DNA of 64,000 nucleotides from Candidatus Wildermuthbacteria bacterium (GTDB lineage Bacteria; Patescibacteriota; Minisyncoccia; Minisyncoccales; UBA10102), in the NCBI GenBank assembly GCA_016186115.1, contig JACPMK010000002.1:274323-338322 (forward strand), in the 5' to 3' direction. The notes under the pieces were generated by a model. That model had not been told where the DNA came from and did not search any database. It worked only from the letters and a program-made list of their open reading frames with translations. Below, piece by piece: positions 8,889-16,847 of the stretch (positions are counted from its first letter, which is position 1; each line of letters begins with the position of its first letter). The position numbers and the translations under genes were made by a program.

Positions 8889-9065
8889 TTATTCGCTCGC
8901 CGGATCGGCGCCTTCTTCCTCATGAGCTTGCTTTCCATAATGCTTTCCATCTGCGCAATCGCACGGTTCCAGCGGCGCATGATGTTTCGGACAACCTTCT
9001 GTTTGGCAAACGCCCGGCTTATCGCTTACCCCTTTACATGTGCCTGTGCAAATATAATGAATCAT
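8889..9065 (-). CDS. small Cys-rich protein (58 aa) missed by the 60-aa ORF cutoff
   Basis: Minus-strand ATG at 9065 and TAA at 8889. Translation is MIHYICTGTCKGVSDKPGVCQTEGCPKHHAPLEPCDCADGKHYGKQAHEEEGADPASE, with 7 Cys and 5 His; weak GGA upstream. Confidence 0.4.
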   Translation of the reverse strand: MIHYICTGTCKGVSDKPGVCQTEGCPKHHAPLEPCDCADGKHYGKQAHEEEGADPASE

Positions 9066-9389: not shown

Positions 9390-10526
9390 TCAGTTTACCA
9401 TATCCAATTCGCCGGCCATTGAGCGATATAAAACGCTGTCAAAGAGCTCTCGGAGTTTGGTTTTTTGCTCCAACAGACCTTTTTTGTATTCTTGCACCGC
9501 ATTCAGTTTTTGAACAATTTCCTTTTGCGTCTCAATTCCCGGCACCGGAATTTCAATATGTTTAATTTTATTTGCATTAAACTGTTGTTGGCCAGAACCG
9601 GTCATCAATCGCTCCGCCTGCGTCCAATATTCTTTTGTTCTAGAAAAAATCCAGATAAACTTTGGCAAGACGAGTTTTTCATCTGGTATAATGCGAATCA
9701 AGTATGAGGCAAAAACAGCAGGTTCATTTGAATCGTAAAAAAGAATTTTGCCATAAGTAGCGCCCGTCCGCGCCACAAGCAAGTTTTCTTGATTGAGCAC
9801 ATACTTCTTTGTTTCGCTGTTTGCTTTAACGTATTTCGGATCAGAATTTCTTAGTTCCCCGCTTTCGTTGATGTCAGTGATTCGTATAAGGCGATAATCC
9901 CCCTCGTCCTGCGCCGAAGCTGTATATCCGTATTGAAACTCGCAAAGCTCCCCTAATTTTTTGATTTCCCAATTTTTGGCGACTGGGTTAAGTTCCTTAT
10001 GCAACAGCGACGCAAAGAGTTCTTCGGTTTTTTGGATAAGCTCGTTATTCAATTTTTGCGCCTCCCGAATCCCATCCAACCGCTCCACAAGCTTTTTCTG
10101 TATCTCAAGAGGAGGAACCGGAATTTTAAGATTGTCTATGAATGCCTTGCTTAAATGAGGAACAGCCGCACCCTGGGCCGCACCACGAATTTTACTCTCG
10201 TTGAATTCCCAAAAGTATCGCAAAAAGCGGCTATCCAGTTTAGGTTCTCTAATCACAATTTTGGCAACGGTGCTACCAGCAAAACCACTTACTTCTATTC
10301 CCACCGTTCCCGCATGTGCTCCGTCCCACACTACAACAACATCATCCTCCGCACACCGCACGCCGTCTTTCTCGGGCGTGTATAGATTATATTTTTGCGT
10401 CCTAATCGTATCAATGCCAATATAAGGCTTATAGCCAAGCTTTTGCTCTTCCGAAACAGCCATTTTCTTTCCCTTTTGGAAGTCTATAACCTCTCCCAAT
10501 TTTTTCGTCGGCCAGTTAGTTTTCAT
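9390..10526 (-). CDS. hsdS: type I restriction-modification specificity subunit HsdS (two target-recognition domains)
   Basis: Classic HsdS architecture: N-terminal WPTKKLGEV, central conserved repeat (IPVPPLEIQKKLVERLD), a second half starting NWEIKKLGELCEF, and a C-terminal repeat (IPVPGIETQKEIVQKLN). The start overlaps the upstream gene by 4 nt (ATGA). Confidence 0.9.
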   Translation of the reverse strand: MKTNWPTKKLGEVIDFQKGKKMAVSEEQKLGYKPYIGIDTIRTQKYNLYTPEKDGVRCAEDDVVVVWDGAHAGTVGIEVSGFAGSTVAKIVIREPKLDSRFLRYFWEFNESKIRGAAQGAAVPHLSKAFIDNLKIPVPPLEIQKKLVERLDGIREAQKLNNELIQKTEELFASLLHKELNPVAKNWEIKKLGELCEFQYGYTASAQDEGDYRLIRITDINESGELRNSDPKYVKANSETKKYVLNQENLLVARTGATYGKILFYDSNEPAVFASYLIRIIPDEKLVLPKFIWIFSRTKEYWTQAERLMTGSGQQQFNANKIKHIEIPVPGIETQKEIVQKLNAVQEYKKGLLEQKTKLRELFDSVLYRSMAGELDMVN

Positions 10527-11104
10527 GTAAGAATACCGAATATACTCAACACGAACAGCAAAAGGCCCAGACCGAAAATTCCCAAAAACAAATAGTATAA
10601 TTTATCCAATACAGAGGAATATTTAGTCACTGGTTTAACATCCTCTGTATAAATCTTTTTGCTTTCTTCCTTCATGTTCAGATAGTCTTCTATATGTTTT
10701 TCCTCGAGCATTCCATCTATGGCTTGCGAGTATATTTGAACTACTTCTTTCAGTTGTTCGGCAAGAAACTTTTGCTCTGCGTCATTTTGTACTTTACTTA
10801 ATGTTCCCTCTTTTATATTAGAAAAAATGATCAAACCAATGCCATAAATAGCACCCACCAGCAATAAAACCACAGACACGATAGATAAACAACCAAGTGC
10901 TTCATTACTCGCATAGATCGGAAATACTATGGCCACCATCGCAATTTCTAACGACGAGAAAGCAACGATTGATGTATGCTTTCGCTCTATAATGCGATTC
11001 TCCCTATTTTCAAATTCGAACATCCGTTGAAGCAAAAGATCAACTAAAGTATCTCGGGTTGTTCGAAATTCGTCTTGCGCTAATTTTAGTTCTTTATCAT
11101 CCAT
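10523..11104 (-). CDS. hypothetical membrane protein (cassette gene D; TM hairpin plus C-terminal TM) embedded in the R-M operon
   Basis: 193 aa: cytoplasmic N-terminus, two adjacent TM helices (IVAFSSLEIAMVAIVFPIYA, LGCLSIVSVVLLLVGAIYGIGLIIF), a ~70-aa charged helical segment and a C-terminal TM (YYLFLGIFGLGLLLFVLSIFGIL). GGGAGA SD upstream; stop overlaps the hsdS start. Confidence 0.6.
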   Translation of the reverse strand: MDDKELKLAQDEFRTTRDTLVDLLLQRMFEFENRENRIIERKHTSIVAFSSLEIAMVAIVFPIYASNEALGCLSIVSVVLLLVGAIYGIGLIIFSNIKEGTLSKVQNDAEQKFLAEQLKEVVQIYSQAIDGMLEEKHIEDYLNMKEESKKIYTEDVKPVTKYSSVLDKLYYLFLGIFGLGLLLFVLSIFGILT

Positions 11105-11139: not shown

Positions 11140-11913
11140 CTAATCTTCATAAACCCTTGATAGGATGGCGTCAGCTTCCTGCCGGCCAAGCCCTCGAAGC
11201 ACCAAACCATTCTCATTTTCTGCCACCATATTTTTGATTTTAGTCACAGCAATTTGAGCTGCGTTCTTAGAGCATCCGTGATCCTGTATCAGCTTTACAA
11301 GATCGGCGCGCTTAGTTCTTTTCGGGGAGAACGCATTCAGTAATAACAGCGCAATCTCTCTGGGGTATAAACCTCTGATATTGATAAATAGTTGATCGTC
11401 GATTGCTTCTAAATATGGATATTTTCGTTCTATTACCGTTTCTACTAGCACAGCTGCCTCGTCCGGATCCGCGGAAGACCCTGCGATCCGAATTATTTCT
11501 GCAAGGATCCATGACATAATTGGAACGGCAACACTGGCGTCCATTTTGTTGGGATTTACCTCCGTAGGATCATGACGAGCCCCTCTGTTGCTCGCGATGT
11601 CATACAAAAAGCGGCATGCCCGCGGTATTGTTATTCGAATAGAATCATGACAACTACCTGCCGCAGTATTCTGAAGCGTGTTAATCACGCCTTCGACACC
11701 AAACTGGCGCGCAGGAGGAAGCGTATTGCCGGAAGAAATACACAGCATTTTGAGTGCTGCCTCGACAAACTTTCCACTTTTTGCAACGCATTCTTCCCAA
11801 TCACTCTCATGGTATGCACGAATAGCACCATTATAATGTCGCAAAAGATTCCCTATATGTTGTCTGGGGAACATGGCTACAAGCACTTCTTGTATGTCTT
11901 GAGTTATAGACAT
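11140..11913 (-). CDS. hypothetical helical protein (cassette gene C), possible Abi/HEPN-like nuclease but no canonical motif
   Basis: 257 aa. All-alpha character; contains SNRGARHD (Rx3H, not the canonical Rx4-6H HEPN motif); the C-terminal ~90 aa are wHTH-like. It lies 7 nt downstream of gene B. Confidence 0.6.
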   Translation of the reverse strand: MSITQDIQEVLVAMFPRQHIGNLLRHYNGAIRAYHESDWEECVAKSGKFVEAALKMLCISSGNTLPPARQFGVEGVINTLQNTAAGSCHDSIRITIPRACRFLYDIASNRGARHDPTEVNPNKMDASVAVPIMSWILAEIIRIAGSSADPDEAAVLVETVIERKYPYLEAIDDQLFINIRGLYPREIALLLLNAFSPKRTKRADLVKLIQDHGCSKNAAQIAVTKIKNMVAENENGLVLRGLGRQEADAILSRVYED

Positions 11914-11920
11914 CTTTGGC

Positions 11921-12346
11921 TCAGTTGAAAATCTCTTTCCAGTTCGGTCTTAAGTTATAAAAGCCTTTTCGCTTCGACTCCACCCAATCGTTATCCTTTG
12001 CAGCAGAAGTAAAAAAGCGGTTAAAGTCAGTACCTACTATAGAAGTCATTCTGCTCCACTGCTTTTCGATTTCGGTAAGCGTAATTTCTTTTTTTGTATC
12101 TCCCTTTGTCAAACGTGCCAATAAAAGAGTGAACTTCTTCGCGCCGCTCATATTCTTGGTGACGTACTGCTTCATAAAGGGGCGGAGAGGCTTATCAAAA
12201 TCAATGCTCCCCGCGCGACTCGTTTGTTTTGAGGCATTCCTATCTTTGGTGTTCTTGGTACTACTAGCTCCAAGAACTATTTTTTCTACACGGTCAAGAC
12301 GGGTCGAGATCTCCGAAATCCTTTGCCCAAGTTCTTTTTCTGTCAT
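11921..12346 (-). CDS. hypothetical protein (cassette gene B), paralog of gene A
   Basis: 141 aa. Its C-terminal ~90 aa align with gene A (TLTEI/TPAEI anchors, conserved R and A in a 23-aa equal-length segment, NDWVESKRKGFYNLRPNWKEI vs NAWIASDPSQRGTFYVTNPGFKAM). The start overlaps the A stop (ATGA). Confidence 0.6.
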   Translation of the reverse strand: MTEKELGQRISEISTRLDRVEKIVLGASSTKNTKDRNASKQTSRAGSIDFDKPLRPFMKQYVTKNMSGAKKFTLLLARLTKGDTKKEITLTEIEKQWSRMTSIVGTDFNRFFTSAAKDNDWVESKRKGFYNLRPNWKEIFN

Positions 12347-12876
12347 AATCGCTTCTTTAACTTCTTATTTTTTGACGCTACTCTTTTTGTGTTCTTTTTG
12401 CGCTTCCCCCCTCGAGGGGCCGATGTTTTAGGAAATCCTTCTTGCATGGCTTTAAAACCAGGGTTGGTTACATAAAACGTTCCCCGTTGACTTGGATCGG
12501 AAGCAATCCAAGCATTCCTTAGAGCTACTTTAAGATCCCTCGTGAGATTTCCGGGGAGCTTTTCTCCAGCATCACGTAAAAGTACTCTTATTTCAGCTGG
12601 AGTAAACGAATCTTGCCCTCTCGCTTCTTTCAAGTATGCCCCTAAAGCTACAATTTTATCTGGGTTGCGGTCAGGCGCAAATTTTTTGAGATATTCAGCT
12701 GGAGCTTCTTGCGGCCGAGAATTTATAGGCCGAGCGGTGACGCTTGTGGTGACGGCACCTTCTTCTGTAGAAAGACACGTCCTCATAACTTCCGCTGCTG
12801 TTTCTGGAGAAACTTCTCCAGTGTACTGTAACCCCGCCCCTCTTAAGATAACTTTCACTTTGTTTGGTTTAGCCAT
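12343..12876 (-). CDS. hypothetical protein (cassette gene A) with Lys-rich basic C-terminal tail, paralog of gene B
   Basis: 177 aa. The tail GGKRKKNTKRVASKNKKLKKRL suggests nucleic-acid binding; the central region is paralogous to gene B. Confidence 0.6.
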   Translation of the reverse strand: MAKPNKVKVILRGAGLQYTGEVSPETAAEVMRTCLSTEEGAVTTSVTARPINSRPQEAPAEYLKKFAPDRNPDKIVALGAYLKEARGQDSFTPAEIRVLLRDAGEKLPGNLTRDLKVALRNAWIASDPSQRGTFYVTNPGFKAMQEGFPKTSAPRGGKRKKNTKRVASKNKKLKKRL

Positions 12877-12926
12877 AGTTTTGTAGTGTATAACTTTTTG
12901 TATTACTGTACGACTTTACGACATTC

Positions 12927-12954
12927 ATTATACACAAGTACAAAACTAAGTCAA
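12927..12954 (-). promoter_or_regulatory. near-consensus sigma70 promoter (TTGACT-16nt-TATAAT) inside the operon, upstream of cassette gene A
   Basis: Minus strand reads ...GCTGCCTC TTGACT TAGTTTTGTACTTGTG TATAAT GAATG...; about 50 nt upstream of the gene A ATG at 12876. It is preceded by a 6-bp hairpin (12957-12975) that spans the hsdM stop codon. Confidence 0.45.
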
Positions 12955-12966
12955 GAGGCAGCTTGG

Positions 12967-14511
12967 TTAGCTGCCTCCGAGTAGTTTCGCTATCTTCTCT
13001 CTTGTACCATCTAGCGTACCACTTTTCTGTTCTATCTCTCCTAAAATCTCCTTGGGATCGCGGTGAGGTTTTTCTGCTTCGATGGCGTGCGGATTGTACG
13101 TGTTGGCAGAAAGAATAAAATCGTTTGCGGCGATTTGTTTTACGGGGGTGAACCAAGAGAATCCTTTTTCTTCTTTGGGCTGGCCGCCGTTCCACAACTC
13201 CAAGAGCTTGGGGATGTCATTGCGGTATTGGGGGCCGTATTTTTTGGCCGCAGATAAAGAGGAGCCGTCTCCTTGCATATTAAAGAACCATATTTTATCA
13301 GGCGACCCTTCGACAGGCTCAGGGTGGTTTTTCTTACGAAAAACCAGAAAGCTGGTTTTTACTCCGGCGTACGGCTGGAATACTCCAGCTGGCATGGAAA
13401 CCACAGCTTCAAGCTTTGTATTTTCCAAAAGATAGCGGCGAATTTCTTTGTCGTCGCGGTTGGTGCCGAACAAACTGCCTTCCGGCAAAATAATGCCAGC
13501 TCGGCCGGTGCCCGGCTTTAAGGCATTCAGCACATACCCCAAAAACAGAACTTGCGTTTTCTTGGACTTTACGGGTAGGGTGGGCTTTACCCGTTCTAAA
13601 TCCACTTTTCCCGCAAATGGTGGGTTTGTTAAAACTACGTCGAACTGGCGGAGATCGTCGTCGGTTTCAGATCCGGCAACCGTATCTTTTCGCTGGATTT
13701 TTGCGCCTTCAATGCCGTGCAGAATAAGATTCATTAAGCACAGCCGCATCATTTCGGGGTCTACATCGTAGCCATGAAACGTTTTTTGAATAAGAAAATC
13801 CCATTGCGCTTTTTTAAGGCGGTCGCCATAGCCTATGGGATAGCCATTTTTCTCCGCAATGCTTTCTTTGCTGCTGTTTTGGTATTTTATCCATTCAAAA
13901 GAAGCAATAAGAAAGCCGCCGGTGCCGCAAGCAGGGTCGAACACGGATTCCCCTATTTTAGGGTTTACCATGTGCACCATGGGCCGAATAATGTGCCGGG
14001 GCGTAAGAAACTGGCCCAGTTCGCCGGCAGCGTCTATGCTCTGAAGTAGTCCTTCGTATAAATCGCCTTTTACGTCGGTCTCCAGCTTTGAAAACTCAAT
14101 GCTGTCGATTATTTCGACTGCGCGTTTGAGTGTAACCTCGTCTGGAATAAGAAACTTTGCGTCGCGGAAAATTTGAGAAACAGTGGTATGGCTGTTTTGA
14201 AGATCTACGGCAAACTGAAAAACATTATCGCGGACAAAGTTATACAGCTGCGTGCCGGTTTTGTCGCGCCAGCGAGACCAGCGGAATTTCTCGTTGTCGC
14301 CTTCAAAAATAGAGTGGTGAGCGCGGCCGGTAAGTTCTTCTGCCCGCTCCATGGCATTATCCTGTTCTTCCAGCATCTTTAAGAAAAACAAAAAGCTTAC
14401 CTGCTGAATGCGCGTAACCGGGTCTTTAAGGCCGGCGCCCCAAAGGTAGTTGTTTAGACGCGAAAGCTTTGTCTGGAAATCTTCTGTAAATTGTTGAGCT
14501 TCAGGACTCAT
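12967..14511 (-). CDS. hsdM: type I R-M N6-adenine DNA methyltransferase subunit HsdM
   Basis: HsdM N-terminal domain (LWGAGLKDP...), SAM-binding FDPACGTGGFL and catalytic VLTNPPFAG (NPPF motif IV); 4-nt ATGA overlap with hsdR. Confidence 0.9.
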   Translation of the reverse strand: MSPEAQQFTEDFQTKLSRLNNYLWGAGLKDPVTRIQQVSFLFFLKMLEEQDNAMERAEELTGRAHHSIFEGDNEKFRWSRWRDKTGTQLYNFVRDNVFQFAVDLQNSHTTVSQIFRDAKFLIPDEVTLKRAVEIIDSIEFSKLETDVKGDLYEGLLQSIDAAGELGQFLTPRHIIRPMVHMVNPKIGESVFDPACGTGGFLIASFEWIKYQNSSKESIAEKNGYPIGYGDRLKKAQWDFLIQKTFHGYDVDPEMMRLCLMNLILHGIEGAKIQRKDTVAGSETDDDLRQFDVVLTNPPFAGKVDLERVKPTLPVKSKKTQVLFLGYVLNALKPGTGRAGIILPEGSLFGTNRDDKEIRRYLLENTKLEAVVSMPAGVFQPYAGVKTSFLVFRKKNHPEPVEGSPDKIWFFNMQGDGSSLSAAKKYGPQYRNDIPKLLELWNGGQPKEEKGFSWFTPVKQIAANDFILSANTYNPHAIEAEKPHRDPKEILGEIEQKSGTLDGTREKIAKLLGGS

Positions 14512-16847
14512 CGTTGAACAAAAATCCGCTGGTTAAGCTCTTGAAGCATTTTCTTAAGTTCGTCGGCGTCAAACAGCGTAAGGACATGGTTCAGGCCGCC
14601 GAAGTATTGGAACACCGGTTCTGTAAAAATAGAAACGTCAACCCGCTCTTTGTTTGCGATATACTGTTCCTTTACCAGGCGGAGTAATTTGGTTTGCTCT
14701 GCAGAAAGATTTTTTTCGAGAAGCCAAGATTCAAACAAGTCGTTGACACGGTTTTCTAAAAGTTGCTCTTCGGTTGGCAGCTCCTCAATATCCAAAGCGG
14801 TACGGATAAACTGGTTAAGCGTGCCTGGCGGATAGCCGTACGCCTCGCGCAAATTTGCCTCGTTAAAGTAGAATTTGGGCGAATTAAGTTTTTCACCAAG
14901 GTACGCGGTTTCGTCGCTTGTAAGTTCTTGCCCTTCTTTTACTTTGGAAATAAGGGGTTCGGTTTGCGCAAGTTCCTGCACTTCTTTTTCCCAGGCTGTT
15001 TGGTATTCGTCAGCATCAATGGATTCGCCTTCCGGCCCCACTTCCACATAGGTACGTTGTACCACACTATCAACATTTTCCGGAGCGGATTCTGGCACCT
15101 GTACAAATTGCAGCTTTTGCACCGCCTCTTTTTGTTCGTCGGTAAGGTCTTCCAAGTCGTCGGTTTCTTCCGTGCCCCAGGGGATACCGGTACGCGCTTT
15201 TAAGATATTTGAGTACGGGTTGTAGCTTTCGTCGTTAAAGTAAGCGGTAACGCCGGCAAAATCGTATATGCGAAAAGAAGTTTTGCTTATGGAGCGGTCG
15301 AGTCGGCTGCCGCGGCCTCGCATTTGCTGGTATAAAATGGCAGATCGCGTAGGGCGTACCATAACAAGGTTTTCTACCATGGGAGCGTCTATTCCCGTAT
15401 CAAGCATCCCAACGGATACGGCTACTTTGGGAAATCCTTCCAGCTTGAATTTTCGAATGGCCGCCCGGGGGTCTTGCGTGTCGGAAGTTATGACTTCTGC
15501 AAAACGGCCGTTGTGTTCGGGAAACGCCTGGTTAAGGTAATACGCAAGCTGGGCTGCGTGCCGTTTTGTTACGGCAAACACAATGGCCTTGCGAAGCTTG
15601 CCATCTCCCCGGCTTTCCTCTTCTTGTCGATATGCTTTTGCAATCTGTTCGTTGCGGGCTGGAATGTTAATTCGCCTTTCCAAGTCTTCTGGATTATAAT
15701 CTTCGTTTTCATATTCTACGCCTTCAAGAGATAGCTTTGTCTCGATACGGACAATATCGTAACCCGCCAAATAGCCTTCTTTGATACCCCTGCGAATGCC
15801 ATAGGTAAAAGTGGGTTCTCCTCGCTCTTTTCTTTCATCCCAGCAGTCAAAAAGCTTGTAGGTGTTGTGGTTAATAAGTATGGAGGGTGTGGCGGTAAGC
15901 CCAATGCGGATAGCGTCAAAGTGCGAAAGGACAGCATTGTAAATGCCGTAAATGCCGCGATGCGCTTCGTCTGAAACGACAACGTCAAAGTATCCACTCG
16001 TAAAGTTTGAAAGTTGGGAATATATCGTAGGGAGCGTGGAGATAATAATAGAGGATTCGTCGCTTTCCCGCCCGCCGTACAAAAGTTTTGATGGATAATC
16101 GGCAAGAATGTCGCCGAAAGCGTCTTGCGCCTGCTGGCCGAGATCGATTCGATCTACAAGAAATAGAACTCGCCGGGCAACTCCTGCCTCAAAAAGACGT
16201 TTGAGGTACAGGGCAACAGTATCTGTTTTCCCGGTACCGGTCGCCATAAGCAAAAGCATTTTACGTTTGCCGTTTTCAAGCGATTTATCCATGACAATCA
16301 TAGCTTCCTTTTGGTACTGTCGAGGCTCTCGCCATTCCCCTCCTTTGAAATATTTTTCTGGTATGGGAATTGCTGAAACCGGCTTTTGCTCTAACCGCTG
16401 TGTTTGCAGTTTTTCGAGATCTCGTTGCGAGAAAAAAGTTGCTACCTTTTGTTCGGGCCTATATTTGTAGTCCCAAAAATAAATATCTTCTCCGTTAGAA
16501 AGAAAAATAAAATCAGTGTTCGTGGCTTCGGCATATTCCAACGCTTGTTGTTTTGCAGCCACGGGATCCACCGAAAAACGTTTCGCTTCTATAATGGCAA
16601 TGCTTCTGCCTCGACTATCACGAAGAATATAGTCGGCCCGGCCTTTTGCTGCTTCGGCTTCCGTGGAAACTTGGTTTTTGTCTTCGATATTCCAAAAGGC
16701 CTCACGCAATTTGCGGTCAATCAAAATGCGCGAGTCTGTCTCGCGCAAAACCTGCCCTTTTGGAGGGGTTACTCCAATTTCCACTTCTCTTGGCTTATAG
16801 AGAGGTTCCTCCATAGAATTACTCCACCATACTCCATTTCTCCTCAT
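14508..16847 (-). CDS. hsdR: type I R-M restriction subunit HsdR (compact, 779 aa)
   Basis: N-terminal PD-(D/E)xK nuclease motif (ADYILRD...IAIIEAKR), SF2 helicase motif I LMATGTGKT, motif II VVSDEAHRG, and later helicase motifs. The alternative start MEEPLYK at 16814 has the better SD (GGTGGAG). Confidence 0.9.
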   Translation of the reverse strand: MRRNGVWWSNSMEEPLYKPREVEIGVTPPKGQVLRETDSRILIDRKLREAFWNIEDKNQVSTEAEAAKGRADYILRDSRGRSIAIIEAKRFSVDPVAAKQQALEYAEATNTDFIFLSNGEDIYFWDYKYRPEQKVATFFSQRDLEKLQTQRLEQKPVSAIPIPEKYFKGGEWREPRQYQKEAMIVMDKSLENGKRKMLLLMATGTGKTDTVALYLKRLFEAGVARRVLFLVDRIDLGQQAQDAFGDILADYPSKLLYGGRESDESSIIISTLPTIYSQLSNFTSGYFDVVVSDEAHRGIYGIYNAVLSHFDAIRIGLTATPSILINHNTYKLFDCWDERKERGEPTFTYGIRRGIKEGYLAGYDIVRIETKLSLEGVEYENEDYNPEDLERRINIPARNEQIAKAYRQEEESRGDGKLRKAIVFAVTKRHAAQLAYYLNQAFPEHNGRFAEVITSDTQDPRAAIRKFKLEGFPKVAVSVGMLDTGIDAPMVENLVMVRPTRSAILYQQMRGRGSRLDRSISKTSFRIYDFAGVTAYFNDESYNPYSNILKARTGIPWGTEETDDLEDLTDEQKEAVQKLQFVQVPESAPENVDSVVQRTYVEVGPEGESIDADEYQTAWEKEVQELAQTEPLISKVKEGQELTSDETAYLGEKLNSPKFYFNEANLREAYGYPPGTLNQFIRTALDIEELPTEEQLLENRVNDLFESWLLEKNLSAEQTKLLRLVKEQYIANKERVDVSIFTEPVFQYFGGLNHVLTLFDADELKKMLQELNQRIFVQR

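What the first reader, a model, noticed from the sequence alone, without database searches (positions are those of the whole stretch)
11921..12876. Tandem paralogous small proteins (genes A and B) as the leading pair of the cassette
The C-terminal ~90 residues of A and B align without gaps over several anchors: FTPAEI/ITLTEI; an equal-length 23-aa segment with conserved R, A and hydrophobic positions; and W(I/V).S....G(T)FY.l.P..K. Identity is about 25-30%. A tandem duplication with a translationally coupled junction (ATGA) suggests a hetero-oligomeric pair. A additionally carries a poly-Lys tail suggestive of nucleic-acid binding.
Basis: seen in the sequence. Interest (0 to 1): 0.6.

Follow-up and report, generated by a model that had tools for sequence, protein, structure and literature searches.

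The report
Two related winged-helix genes in restriction-linked cassette
Two small adjacent genes encode distantly related DNA-binding-type (winged-helix) proteins, and they lead a widespread, unannotated gene cassette that often sits inside type I restriction-modification operons and looks like a toxin-antitoxin or back-up defence module.

Summary
The genes exist as described, on the minus strand: A 12343-12876 (177 aa), B 11921-12346 (141 aa), with an ATGA overlap and a Lys/Arg tail on A.

The claimed 25-30% gap-free identity is not confirmed. It is 16% over 87 residues with three indels. Pairwise tests fail (BLASTP E=17; Smith-Waterman shuffle p=0.06-0.3).

At profile level the similarity is real but modest:
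- hhalign P about 1e-3 over the whole domain, with 0 of 400 shuffles reaching the score.
- The A-family HMM hits B at 14-19 bits.
- Other winged helices of the same cassettes score at background.
- AlphaFold gives both the same build: a short N-module, a disordered basic linker and a winged helix.

This is not a recent duplication or an obligate pair. B is fixed next to C (11140-11913), a 257-aa protein with a weak HEPN-like domain plus a winged helix. B-C is the minimal core. A is one of several interchangeable first-gene proteins. A conserved operator-like motif in front of A genes suggests A is the autorepressor.

The cassette sits between hsdM and hsdS here and in two other genomes. Type I R-M genes lie within 5 kb in 6 of 21 long B loci.

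None of A, B or C matches Pfam, NCBIfam, PADLOC or PHROGs. It is most likely a tripartite TA/Abi-like module. The function is inferred, not shown.

The parts
14508..16847 (-). hsdR, type I restriction subunit (779 aa)
   Evidence: Pfam ResIII 6e-33, EcoEI_R_C 3e-19, HSDR_N. It overlaps the hsdM start by 4 nt.
12967..14511 (-). hsdM, type I methyltransferase subunit (514 aa)
   Evidence: Pfam N6_Mtase 3e-59, HsdM_N 2e-10.
12877..12977 (-). hsdM-A spacer. It holds a hairpin across the hsdM stop (12955-12977), a near-consensus sigma70-type promoter (TTGACT-16-TATAAT, 12954..12927), and a long interrupted inverted repeat. One arm of the repeat (12928-12948) lies over the promoter spacer and -10. 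The other arm (12876-12893) abuts A's ATG.
   Evidence: The promoter scan gives 11 of 12 matches. Inverted repeats I2 (10 nt, 100%), I4 (8 nt, 100%) and I3 (9 nt, 100%) are. Folded as RNA the region gives -19.7 kcal/mol, z=-3.3. Function is inferred.
12343..12876 (-). Gene A (177 aa), the first gene of the cassette. It has a beta-hairpin+helix N-module (residues 7-36, nt 12769-12858), a disordered linker, a winged helix (residues 59-146, nt 12439-12702) and a Lys/Arg tail (residues 153-177, nt 12346-12420).
   Evidence: ORF. AlphaFold2 gives pLDDT 87-94 over the winged helix. Foldseek hits MarR, F93, RosR and other winged helices. The family has 937 cluster representatives. No Pfam, NCBIfam, PADLOC or PHROGs match.
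11921..12346 (-). Gene B (141 aa), the second gene. It has an N-terminal helix (residues 3-24, nt 12275-12340), a disordered linker and a winged helix (residues 54-140, nt 11927-12187).
   Evidence: ORF. AlphaFold2 gives pLDDT 92-96 over the winged helix. Foldseek hits Rok, forkhead, MCM-WH and DpnI-WH. 31 homologues were found. It lies directly upstream of C or of a PLD-like effector in the related loci.
11140..11913 (-). Gene C (257 aa), the putative effector. It has an alpha-helical N-domain with invariant E51, R93 and H114 and the motif ASNRGxRHD (weakly HEPN-like), plus a C-terminal PaaX-like winged helix. It starts 7 nt after B's stop.
   Evidence: 692 homologues, none with a Pfam domain. 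6 of 36 members hit Pfam HEPN weakly (best 1.6e-3), and there are PaaX hits. PDB 3kfw matches the C-terminal winged helix at E=0.85.
10523..11104 (-). Gene D (193 aa), a predicted 3-TM membrane protein. It is an accessory gene specific to this locus and overlaps the hsdS start by 4 nt.
   Evidence: Hydrophobic segments at about 45-64, 72-96 and 170-193, and no homologue in any related locus. There is only a weak PADLOC hit, PDC-M30A at 1.6e-3.
9390..10526 (-). hsdS, type I specificity subunit (378 aa, two target-recognition domains). It is the last gene of the unit and lies downstream of the cassette.
   Evidence: Pfam Methylase_S 5e-41, two stretches.

Best explanation
A and B are two anciently diverged members of one winged-helix (wHTH) sub-family. 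Each is built as a short N-terminal module, a disordered basic linker and a wHTH.

They are the first two genes of a mobile cassette made of an array of small wHTH proteins followed by an effector. Here the cassette is A-B-C, plus a locus-specific membrane protein D. It is nested between hsdM and hsdS of an intact type I R-M operon, so hsdS lies downstream of the cassette and is probably transcribed with it.

Most likely division of labour (inferred):
- A is the sequence-specific autorepressor. It would bind an operator at the cassette's own promoter.
- B is the effector-proximal partner, acting as an antitoxin or adaptor. It would hold C inactive.
- C is the effector, with a HEPN-like helical domain that may be an RNase.

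The whole would behave as a tripartite toxin-antitoxin or abortive-infection-like module linked to restriction. The logic resembles PrrC, DarTG2 or TgvAB nested in type I R-M loci, and the HEPN nuclease held in check by a WH protein and DNA in the type IX retron.

Shown: gene order, fold, profile-level homology, conservation of the cassette, its modularity, its link to type I R-M, and the conserved upstream motifs.

Inferred: DNA binding by A, B-C contact, any toxicity or RNase activity of C, and a defence role.
For: Fold and homology:
- The AlphaFold2 models have the same element order, H0-H1-b-H2-H3-b-b-Hc. It is in register with the profile alignment.
- hhalign gives P about 1e-3, with 0 of 400 shuffles as good.
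- Only the A/B wHTH pair scores above background. A-GFF, B-GFF, A-Cctd and B-Cctd all give P>=0.03.
- L012:6521-6958 is the gene after an A homologue. It is a B-family member (80 bits) and also matches the A HMM across the wHTH (22.6 bits).

Cassette:
- B is followed by C in 31 of 80 metagenome loci and by wHTH+PLD-like proteins in about 20.
- A minimal two-gene B-C cassette occurs in L105. Arrays of up to four small wHTH genes precede C in L106.
- Full A-B-C occurs in L021/L068 and L043.

R-M link:
- hsdR-hsdM-A-B'-C-hsdS is found in L015 and L016, as in the window.
- L018 has hsdM-A-x-PLD-like-...-hsdS.
- Type I genes lie within 5 kb in 6 of 21 B loci of at least 6 kb.

Regulator role of the first gene:
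- A near-consensus promoter and an inverted repeat lie in the 90-nt hsdM-A spacer.
- GTA[TG]AC is enriched 25-fold in the 120 nt upstream of A genes from CPR bacteria, Actinomycetota and Gammaproteobacteria.
- Cassettes led by a different first-gene wHTH carry a different conserved element, TATTCnnnTATTC...GAATAnnnGAAT-ATG, in 17 of 31 loci.
- B occurs in both cassette types, so the operator tracks the first gene and not B.

Cooperation of the small proteins:
- Single polypeptides join A to a second A-type wHTH (P0116, P0188) or to a GFF-type wHTH (P0070, P0180).

Precedents:
- PrrC within hsdMSR (PMC3710099).
- DarTG2 plus the RptR repressor in a type I R-M system (PMC12255303).
- TgvAB embedded in a type I R-M system (PMC11411939).
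- A HEPN active site enclosed by a WH protein and DNA (10.64898/2026.07.14.738597).
Against: - There is no experimental or structural evidence for any interaction or activity.
- The HEPN assignment for C is sub-threshold: best Pfam E=1.6e-3, 6 of 36 members, covering only the first two helices. Its conserved motif is R-x3-H, not the canonical R-x4-6-H.
- The window's own spacer has no exact GTA[TG]AC, only related TGTAC/GTATA/ATACA repeats.
- The inverted repeat could act at the RNA level instead.
- The A-B homology rests on P about 1e-3 statistics. The reciprocal HMM test is weak (p about 0.02).
- PADLOC has no model for any of the proteins, so a defence role is only contextual.
- Many cassettes sit in ordinary neighbourhoods without R-M genes (L021, L105, L106).
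Confidence: 0.5

Rival explanations
1. A and B are unrelated small winged-helix proteins. Their resemblance would reflect only the constraints of a very common fold, with no specific common ancestry and no functional pairing.
For: - BLASTP gives E=17.
- Smith-Waterman shuffles give p=0.06-0.32.
- Identity is only 16%.
- The B HMM scores the A domain at 1.6 bits, p about 0.02.
- Foldseek finds only generic winged-helix matches, all with E>=0.01.
- The two proteins mostly occur with other partners.
Against: - The other winged helices of the same cassettes (GFF-type, C's C-terminal domain) score at background against A and B. A against B gives P=9e-4 over the full 80-column domain.
- No hhalign shuffle out of 400 reaches the real score.
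- The A HMM hits several B-family members in the same register (P0009 18.8 bits, P0037, P0038, P0034).
- A bridging protein matches both HMMs.
- Both domains share an extra helix H0 and a conserved Arg and Trp in H3 and the wing.
Confidence: 0.15
2. A and B, and perhaps C, are simply transcription factors that control expression of the type I R-M genes. They would act like controller proteins or RptR, and the unit would contain no toxin or effector.
For: - All three proteins carry winged helices.
- There is a promoter with operator-like repeats directly upstream of A.
- hsdS lies downstream of the cassette in the same orientation.
- RptR is a small R-M-proximal repressor and so sets a precedent.
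Against: - The cassette is often free-standing with no R-M genes nearby (L021, L105, L106).
- The third position swaps between a conserved helical domain with invariant Arg/His/Glu, a PLD-like domain and a third domain type. This is the pattern of an effector slot, not of a regulator.
- There is no sequence or structure match to RptR or to controller proteins.
Confidence: 0.15
3. The cassette is a selfish tripartite addiction module (regulator, antitoxin, toxin, as in omega-epsilon-zeta or paaR-paaA-parE). It would stabilise the mobile DNA it rides on, including the R-M operon, and would have no role in sensing phage or R-M failure.
For: - The minimal core is two genes, B-C (L105).
- The genes are tightly spaced or overlapping.
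- There is an autoregulation-type operator.
- Cassettes lie next to a relaxase and integrase (L006), a recombinase (L001) and an IS element (L022).
- No relatives were found on viral contigs.
Against: - The strong, repeated nesting inside type I R-M operons in different arrangements argues for a functional link with restriction rather than random hitch-hiking. The arrangements seen are between M and S, after S, before R, and between S and R.
- Neighbours often include other defence genes: AbiEii, DpnII, TIR, Schlafen-like.
- The two readings are not mutually exclusive.
Confidence: 0.25

Closest known systems
PrrC/RloC anticodon nucleases nested in type I R-M loci (prr locus)
   Same: An accessory gene set inserted among hsdM/hsdS/hsdR. 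The effector is of the HEPN kind and is thought to be held silent until restriction is compromised (PMC3710099).
   Different: PrrC and RloC are single large proteins with an ABC-ATPase domain and a canonical HEPN motif. Here there is no ATPase. The effector is a 257-aa HEPN-like+wHTH protein with an R-x3-H motif, preceded by one to four small wHTH proteins. No sequence similarity was found.
RptR-DarTG2 island inside a type I R-M system (EPEC)
   Same: A small DNA-binding repressor at the head of a toxin-antitoxin module embedded in a type I R-M operon. Its operator is made of short repeats or a 6-bp palindrome at the promoter (PMC12255303). Compare the GTATAC/GTAGAC repeats upstream of A genes.
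   Different: The proteins are different (no match by sequence or Foldseek), and the toxin chemistry is different (DarT ADP-ribosylates DNA). RptR sits at the start of the whole island, whereas A sits after hsdM.
Type IX retron effector pair (HEPN nuclease + winged-helix protein)
   Same: A HEPN nuclease is kept inactive by a separate WH protein together with DNA, and is released on infection (10.64898/2026.07.14.738597).
   Different: The operon has no reverse transcriptase, and Rfam finds no RNA family there. There are no PADLOC retron hits. Homology was tested only through those libraries.
Tripartite type II TA systems with a separate regulator (omega-epsilon-zeta, paaR2-paaA2-parE2)
   Same: The gene order regulator, antitoxin, toxin; tight coupling; a promoter-proximal operator. 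This comparison rests on my own knowledge of these systems.
   Different: All three proteins here carry winged helices. The number of small proteins varies from 1 to 4. The effector domain is swappable (HEPN-like, PLD-like, other). No sequence relation was found.
MarR/PadR-type winged-helix regulators
   Same: The wHTH topology. They are the best Foldseek neighbours of A (4jba MarR, prob 1.0, E=0.02; 3l09 is hit by both A and B).
   Different: No Pfam MarR or PadR match at threshold (1 of 127 A-family members hits PadR at 7.5e-3). The extra N-terminal modules, the disordered basic linkers and the basic tail are not features of those families.

Membership tests
Winged helix-turn-helix fold (A and B C-terminal domains) | Topology H1-b1-H2-H3-b2-b3 with a beta-hairpin wing | tested here: met
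   AlphaFold2 gives, for A: H71-86, E91, H93-102, H111-120, E124-126, E134-136. For B: H68-79, E87-89, H90-99, H110-118, E121-122, E129-132. pLDDT is about 87-96.
Winged helix-turn-helix fold (A and B C-terminal domains) | Significant structural similarity to solved winged-helix proteins | tested here: inconclusive
Winged helix-turn-helix fold (A and B C-terminal domains) | Binds nucleic acid through the recognition helix | not testable with these tools
   Indirect only: a conserved Arg (A R113 / B R110) at the start of H3, a basic tail, and a conserved upstream motif.
One common wHTH sub-family for A and B (paralogy) | Pairwise sequence similarity above shuffled controls | tested here: not met
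   BLASTP E=17. Smith-Waterman p=0.32, 0.055 and 0.12.
One common wHTH sub-family for A and B (paralogy) | Profile-profile or profile-sequence similarity above controls and above other wHTH families | tested here: met
   hhalign P=0.0012 and 0.0009, with 0 of 400 shuffles as good. Other wHTH pairs give P>=0.03. The A HMM scores B at 14-19 bits, with 1 of 2000 shuffles as good.
One common wHTH sub-family for A and B (paralogy) | Co-occurrence of the two families in other genomes | tested here: met
   A-B-C in L021/L068 and L043, and A-B-PLD-like in L012. The pair is not obligate: only 4 of about 60 resolvable B loci have an A-type upstream gene.
HEPN superfamily (protein C, N-domain) | Match to a HEPN profile at family threshold | tested here: not met
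   Pfam PF05168 is hit by 6 of 36 members, best E=1.6e-3 and 12 bits against a cut-off of 22. The match covers only helices 1-2.
HEPN superfamily (protein C, N-domain) | R-x4-6-H catalytic motif before the last helix | tested here: not met
   The conserved motif is ASN-R-G-x-R-H-D (R110-x3-H114, with R113 adjacent). It is invariant at H114 and nearly invariant at R110/R113, and it lies in the right place before the last helix, but it is one residue short of the canonical spacing.
HEPN superfamily (protein C, N-domain) | Four-helix up-down bundle forming a dimeric RNase | not tested
PrrC/RloC-type R-M-linked anticodon nucleases | N-terminal ABC/Rad50-like ATPase fused to the nuclease | tested here: not met
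   No ATPase domain in A, B, C or D by Pfam or NCBIfam.
R-M controller proteins / RptR | Sequence or structural match to the HTH_XRE-type C proteins or to RptR | tested here: not met
   No Pfam or NCBIfam hit. No PDB sequence hit with the A profile. Neither appears among the top 50 Foldseek PDB hits.
Type IX retron | Reverse transcriptase and msr/msd ncRNA next to the HEPN and WH genes | tested here: not met
   The operon holds only hsdR, hsdM, A, B, C, D and hsdS. Rfam finds only three distant tRNAs in the window. No PADLOC hit.
Known anti-phage defence systems (PADLOC-DB 2.0) | HMM match to any catalogued defence protein | tested here: not met
   A, B and C: 0 families. D: weak PDC-M30A at 1.6e-3.

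The most novel reading that the evidence does not exclude
A, B and C would define a large, so far uncatalogued class of modular conflict systems. In it, an array of one to four small winged-helix proteins is built from interchangeable N-modules (beta-hairpin or helix) and interchangeable winged helices (A/B-type, GFF-type, others). The array controls a swappable effector (HEPN-like, PLD-like or other). The class repeatedly nests within type I R-M operons, placing hsdS under the cassette's own promoter. It would act as a second line of defence that fires when restriction is overwhelmed or inhibited.
Probability: 0.35. Interest if true: 0.75.

Novelty: new variant of a known kind. Interest (0 to 1): 0.6.

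Why it matters
If the model is right, three sizeable protein families belong to one widespread module coupled to type I restriction-modification. They are currently annotated only as hypothetical proteins. The A family has 937 cluster representatives and the C family has 692 or more homologues. The module is found in CPR/Patescibacteria, Acidobacteriota-like MAGs, Actinomycetota and Proteobacteria.

It would add a new architecture, with winged-helix arrays gating an effector, to the short list of systems nested in type I R-M loci (PrrC, DarTG2, TgvAB).

It also gives directly testable parts: a predicted repressor with its operator, a two-gene B-C core, and alternative effectors. For annotation, the work supplies seed alignments for at least four new families.

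Tried and rejected
- **Family libraries.** Pfam, NCBIfam, PADLOC and PHROGs scans of A-D gave nothing usable. Pfam on 127 A-family members gave nothing consistent.
- **PDB sequence searches.** The A profile found nothing. The C profile found only a marginal PaaX-like hit on its C-terminal winged helix.
- **The search for related loci with the 127-sequence A alignment.** It failed because the alignment was too diverse. It was redone with the 8-sequence alignment.
- **Viral contigs.** No relatives of A or B were found, so a phage-borne origin was dropped.
- **Plasmid collection.** A had no hit. C had one hit, on the archaeal Natronomonas plasmid PL131, in an uninformative context.
- **Is the third-position C-terminal domain of L011/L013/P0085 related to C's N-domain?** hhalign gave P=0.016 over 108 columns, too weak to claim.
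- **Retron type IX membership.** Rejected because there is no RT and no ncRNA.
- **PrrC-like membership.** Rejected because there is no ATPase.
- **A recent tandem duplication.** Rejected on the 16% identity, the different N-modules and the independent partner repertoires.
Full report
**What is at the coordinates**

All genes of interest lie on the minus strand and form one tight co-directional block:

| Gene | Coordinates | Notes |
|---|---|---|
| hsdR | 14508-16847 | Pfam ResIII, EcoEI_R_C |
| hsdM | 12967-14511 | Pfam N6_Mtase, HsdM_N |
| A | 12343-12876 | 177 aa |
| B | 11921-12346 | 141 aa |
| C | 11140-11913 | 257 aa |
| D | 10523-11104 | 193 aa |
| hsdS | 9390-10526 | Pfam Methylase_S, two stretches |

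- The A/B junction is the 4-nt overlap ATGA (+ strand 12343-12346 = tcat).
- B and C are 7 nt apart, and D overlaps hsdS by 4 nt.
- A ends in a Lys/Arg-rich tail. This tail is a family feature and is disordered in the model.
- The sequences are identical to hypothetical proteins of a Candidatus Wildermuthbacteria MAG.
- A, B and C match nothing in Pfam, NCBIfam, PADLOC or PHROGs.

**Is the A/B resemblance real?**

At the pairwise level it is not significant:
- BLASTP gives E=16-17, with 21 of 108 identities and 17 gap positions.
- Smith-Waterman scores against 2000 shuffles give p=0.32 for the full proteins. They give p=0.055 for the C-terminal parts and p=0.12 with BLOSUM45.
- In the profile-guided alignment the two domains share 14 of 87 identical residues (16%; 21% in a 63-residue core), with three indels.

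At the family level the picture changes:
- An exhaustive HMMER search showed that the A family is large: 937 cluster representatives at E<=1e-3 and 615 at E<=1e-10.
- With 127 diverse A sequences, hhalign against B gives P=0.0012 and score 27.6 over 86 columns. The alignment runs from a helix preceding the wHTH to the wing.
- Reversed profiles score 15. None of 200 column shuffles or 200 block shuffles exceeds 21.9.
- Restricting both profiles to the domain gives P=0.0009 over 80 columns. The other winged helices found in the same kind of cassette score at background against A and B, with P=0.1-0.34. These are the 'GFF-type' family and C's C-terminal domain.
- The A-family HMM scores the window's B at 18.8 bits. 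It also hits several other B-family proteins in the same register.
- Domain-only, the A HMM gives 14.2 bits, reached by 1 of 2000 shuffles. The reciprocal test is weaker, at 1.6 bits with 41 of 2000 shuffles as good.
- A protein encoded right after an A homologue in a Saccharibacteria genome (L012:6521-6958) is a clear B-family member (80 bits). It also matches the A HMM across the whole wHTH (22.6 bits).

**Structure**

- The AlphaFold2 models are confident over the C-terminal domains, with pLDDT about 87-96. Both show the same element order. It is a leading helix, then H1, a short strand, H2, H3, a two-stranded wing and a trailing helix. The elements are in register with the profile alignment.
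- Foldseek against the PDB returns almost only winged-helix proteins for both. A hits MarR, STIV F93 and RosR. B hits Rok, forkhead, MCM-WH and DpnI-WH. Rok and 3l09 are hit by both. No hit has E<=0.001.
- The N-terminal parts differ. A has a beta-hairpin plus helix (residues 7-36). B has a single long helix (residues 3-24). Each is joined to the wHTH by a disordered, basic, Ser/Thr-rich linker.

I conclude that the two wHTH domains are homologous members of one sub-family, at roughly 1-in-1000 evidence. They are anciently diverged, not a recent local duplication.

**The pair in other genomes**

*B loci*
- Every B homologue whose context I looked up individually has a short gene upstream. It is followed by a C homologue or by a protein combining a winged helix with a PLD-like domain.
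- In 80 metagenome loci with a B gene, the downstream gene is C in 31 and a B-type wHTH fused to a PLD-like domain (motif LHDRFxI) in 12. It is another wHTH+PLD-like protein in about 8 and is unresolved in most of the rest. Pfam hits to MIT_C and PLDc_2 are weak.
- The upstream gene is an A-type protein in only 4 loci. It belongs to a different ~110-aa family in about 50. That family has an N-terminal helix RLxxLEKAVFG plus a wHTH containing GGxRLLISKGFF, here called 'GFF-type'.

*A loci*
- Of 10 genome loci with an A gene, L015 and L016 repeat the window's layout, hsdR-hsdM-A-B'-C-hsdS.
- L018 has hsdR-hsdM-A-(GFF-type)-(wHTH+PLD-like)-...-hsdS.
- L012 has A-B-(PLD-like).
- L011, L013 and L014 have A, then a protein with B's N-helix and another wHTH, then a third type of effector.
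- L017 has A directly followed by a wHTH+PLD-like protein.

*Other arrangements*
- Free-standing A-B-C occurs in L021/L068 and L043.
- A minimal B-C pair occurs in L105.
- Five-gene arrays occur in L106, with three GFF-type proteins followed by B and then C.
- N-modules and wHTH modules are shuffled. B-type wHTH occurs with beta-hairpin N-modules (P0037-39, L022, L105). A-type wHTH occurs with helical N-modules (L087, L091).
- Single polypeptides join A to a second A-type wHTH (P0116, P0188; second-domain i-E about 1e-7). Others join A to a GFF-type wHTH (P0070, P0180; i-E about 1e-15) or to the third effector type (P0085).

The conserved unit is therefore an array of small wHTH proteins followed by an effector. 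B-C is its core and A is one alternative first gene.

**Link to restriction-modification**

- Besides the window, L015, L016 and L018 have the cassette inside a type I operon.
- L001 and L047 have it just after hsdS, L006 and L045 after hsdR, L051 before hsdR, and L063 between hsdS and hsdR.
- Six of 21 B loci of at least 6 kb have type I genes within 5 kb.
- Other neighbours include AbiEii, DpnII, a TIR protein, a Schlafen-like protein, N6/N4 methyltransferases, recombinases, a relaxase and IS elements.
- Several cassettes sit among housekeeping genes.
- No relatives were found on viral contigs.

**Protein C**

- The family has at least 692 members, none with a precomputed Pfam domain.
- The N-terminal ~150 residues are helical. 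E51, R93, H114, D125, W135 and E139 are invariant. The motif YDIASNRGxRHD sits before the last helix.
- Six of 36 members hit Pfam HEPN weakly (best 1.6e-3), over the first two helices.
- The Arg-His spacing is R-x3-H, one residue shorter than the canonical R-x4-6-H.
- The C-terminal ~85 residues resemble PaaX-type winged helices.
- I treat 'HEPN-like' as a lead, not a finding. C could not be modelled.

**Cis elements (found in passing, but relevant to what A does)**

- The 90-nt hsdM-A spacer holds a near-consensus promoter: TTGACT-16-TATAAT, 11 of 12 matches.
- It also holds an interrupted inverted repeat. One arm covers the promoter spacer and -10 (12928-12948). The other abuts A's start codon (12876-12893). 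Folded as RNA the region gives -19.7 kcal/mol, z=-3.3.
- Upstream of A genes from very different phyla, the hexamer GTA[TG]AC occurs 14 times in 1920 nt. Elsewhere in the same loci it occurs 59 times in 204 kb, a 25-fold enrichment. It usually appears as 2-3 repeats right after the -10: TGTAKACAAGTTGACA in L001 and L011-14, CGTAGACACGTAGACAAGGAGACA in L017, and TGTATACAATGTATAC in L018.
- The window itself has only degenerate versions of this motif.
- Some cassettes have a beta-hairpin GFF-type protein as first gene. They carry a different, strikingly conserved pair of elements: TATTCnnnTATTCT at the -10 and its inverted copy GGAATAnnnGAAT abutting the ATG. Both arms are present in 17 of 31 loci.
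- B occurs in both cassette types, so the operator tracks the first gene. This is the basis for proposing that A is the autorepressor.

**Mechanism proposed**

A represses the cassette promoter. B binds and restrains C. C is the effector. The module behaves as a tripartite TA/Abi-like unit that is frequently coupled to type I restriction.

Precedents for the logic:
- PrrC among hsdMSR (PMC3710099).
- RptR-DarTG2 within a type I system (PMC12255303).
- TgvAB within a type I system (PMC11411939).
- A HEPN nuclease enclosed by a WH protein and DNA in the type IX retron (10.64898/2026.07.14.738597).

The protein-protein contacts, DNA binding and effector chemistry are inferred.

**Verdict**

The genes, junction, tail and anchors are real. 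The identity and gaplessness are overstated, and significance appears only at profile level.
Homologous domains and functional linkage are supported. A tandem duplication and an obligate pair are not. Hetero-oligomerisation is untested.
- The cassette is unannotated in every library consulted. It appears to be a new variant of the known class of accessory modules nested in type I R-M loci.

Noticed in passing
window 12877-12977 (minus strand): The hsdM-A spacer holds a near-consensus sigma70-type promoter (TTGACT-16-TATAAT). It also holds a long interrupted inverted repeat, with one arm over the -10 region and the other abutting A's ATG. A separate 9-bp perfect hairpin spans the hsdM stop codon. 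In read-through transcripts from hsdM the repeat could occlude A's start codon (RNA fold -19.7 kcal/mol, z=-3.3).
   Followed up: partly
L001, L011-L018, L043: 120 nt upstream of A-family genes: GTA[TG]AC(A) repeats lie immediately after the -10 and are 25-fold enriched over the rest of the loci. They are conserved from CPR bacteria to Actinomycetota and Gammaproteobacteria. This is a candidate operator for A-family proteins.
   Followed up: partly
L006:5204-5313, L009, L041, L063, L076, L078 and others (upstream of beta-hairpin GFF-type first genes): A highly conserved architecture: CTTGAC...TATTCnnnTATTCT...(about 20 nt)...GGAATAnnnGAAT-ATG. The two 12-13-nt elements are reverse complements of each other and sometimes co-vary (L073 CCAG/CTGG against L063 CCAT/ATGG). 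Both arms are present in 17 of 31 loci.
   Followed up: partly
window 10523-11104 (minus strand): Gene D encodes a 193-aa protein with three predicted transmembrane segments. It is wedged between C and hsdS and overlaps the hsdS start. No homologue exists in any of the ~100 related loci. There is a weak PADLOC candidate hit (PDC-M30A, 1.6e-3).
   Followed up: partly
L003:9331-11552: A second, analogous mini-cassette lies directly downstream of a B-C cassette. It holds a 162-aa protein with an A-like build (beta-hairpin N-module, linker, helical domain). This is followed by a Pfam AF_1680 protein carrying a canonical RNGCGH (R-x4-H) motif, and then by a TIR_2 protein.
   Followed up: no
P0116, P0188, P0070, P0180, P0146, P0159, P0171, P0085 (A-family representatives): Natural fusions of an A-type protein to a second winged helix (A-type, GFF-type or another type). 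In P0085 the fusion is to the C-terminal domain otherwise found in the third gene of the L011/L013 cassettes.
   Followed up: partly
L105:6013-9017: A minimal two-gene B-C cassette sits between an 82-aa zf-FPG fragment and a full Fapy-DNA-glycosylase gene on the opposite strand. It may be an insertion next to or into an fpg-like gene.
   Followed up: no
L009:6421-7161, L030:767-1519, L017:6528-7274, L076:1924-2712, L018:6886-7704: An alternative third-position protein joins a winged helix (B-type in L009 and L030) to a ~130-aa domain. That domain carries the motif LHDR(F/Y)xI...G.(S/G)xKDxG, an HKD/PLD-like motif with Arg in place of Lys. Only weak Pfam MIT_C/PLDc_2 hits were found.
   Followed up: partly
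window 8889-9065 (minus strand): A small Cys/His-rich ORF (58 aa, MIHYICTGTCKGVSDKPGVCQTEGCPKHHAPLEPCDCADGKHYGK...) lies just downstream of hsdS. It may be a metal-binding protein.
   Followed up: no
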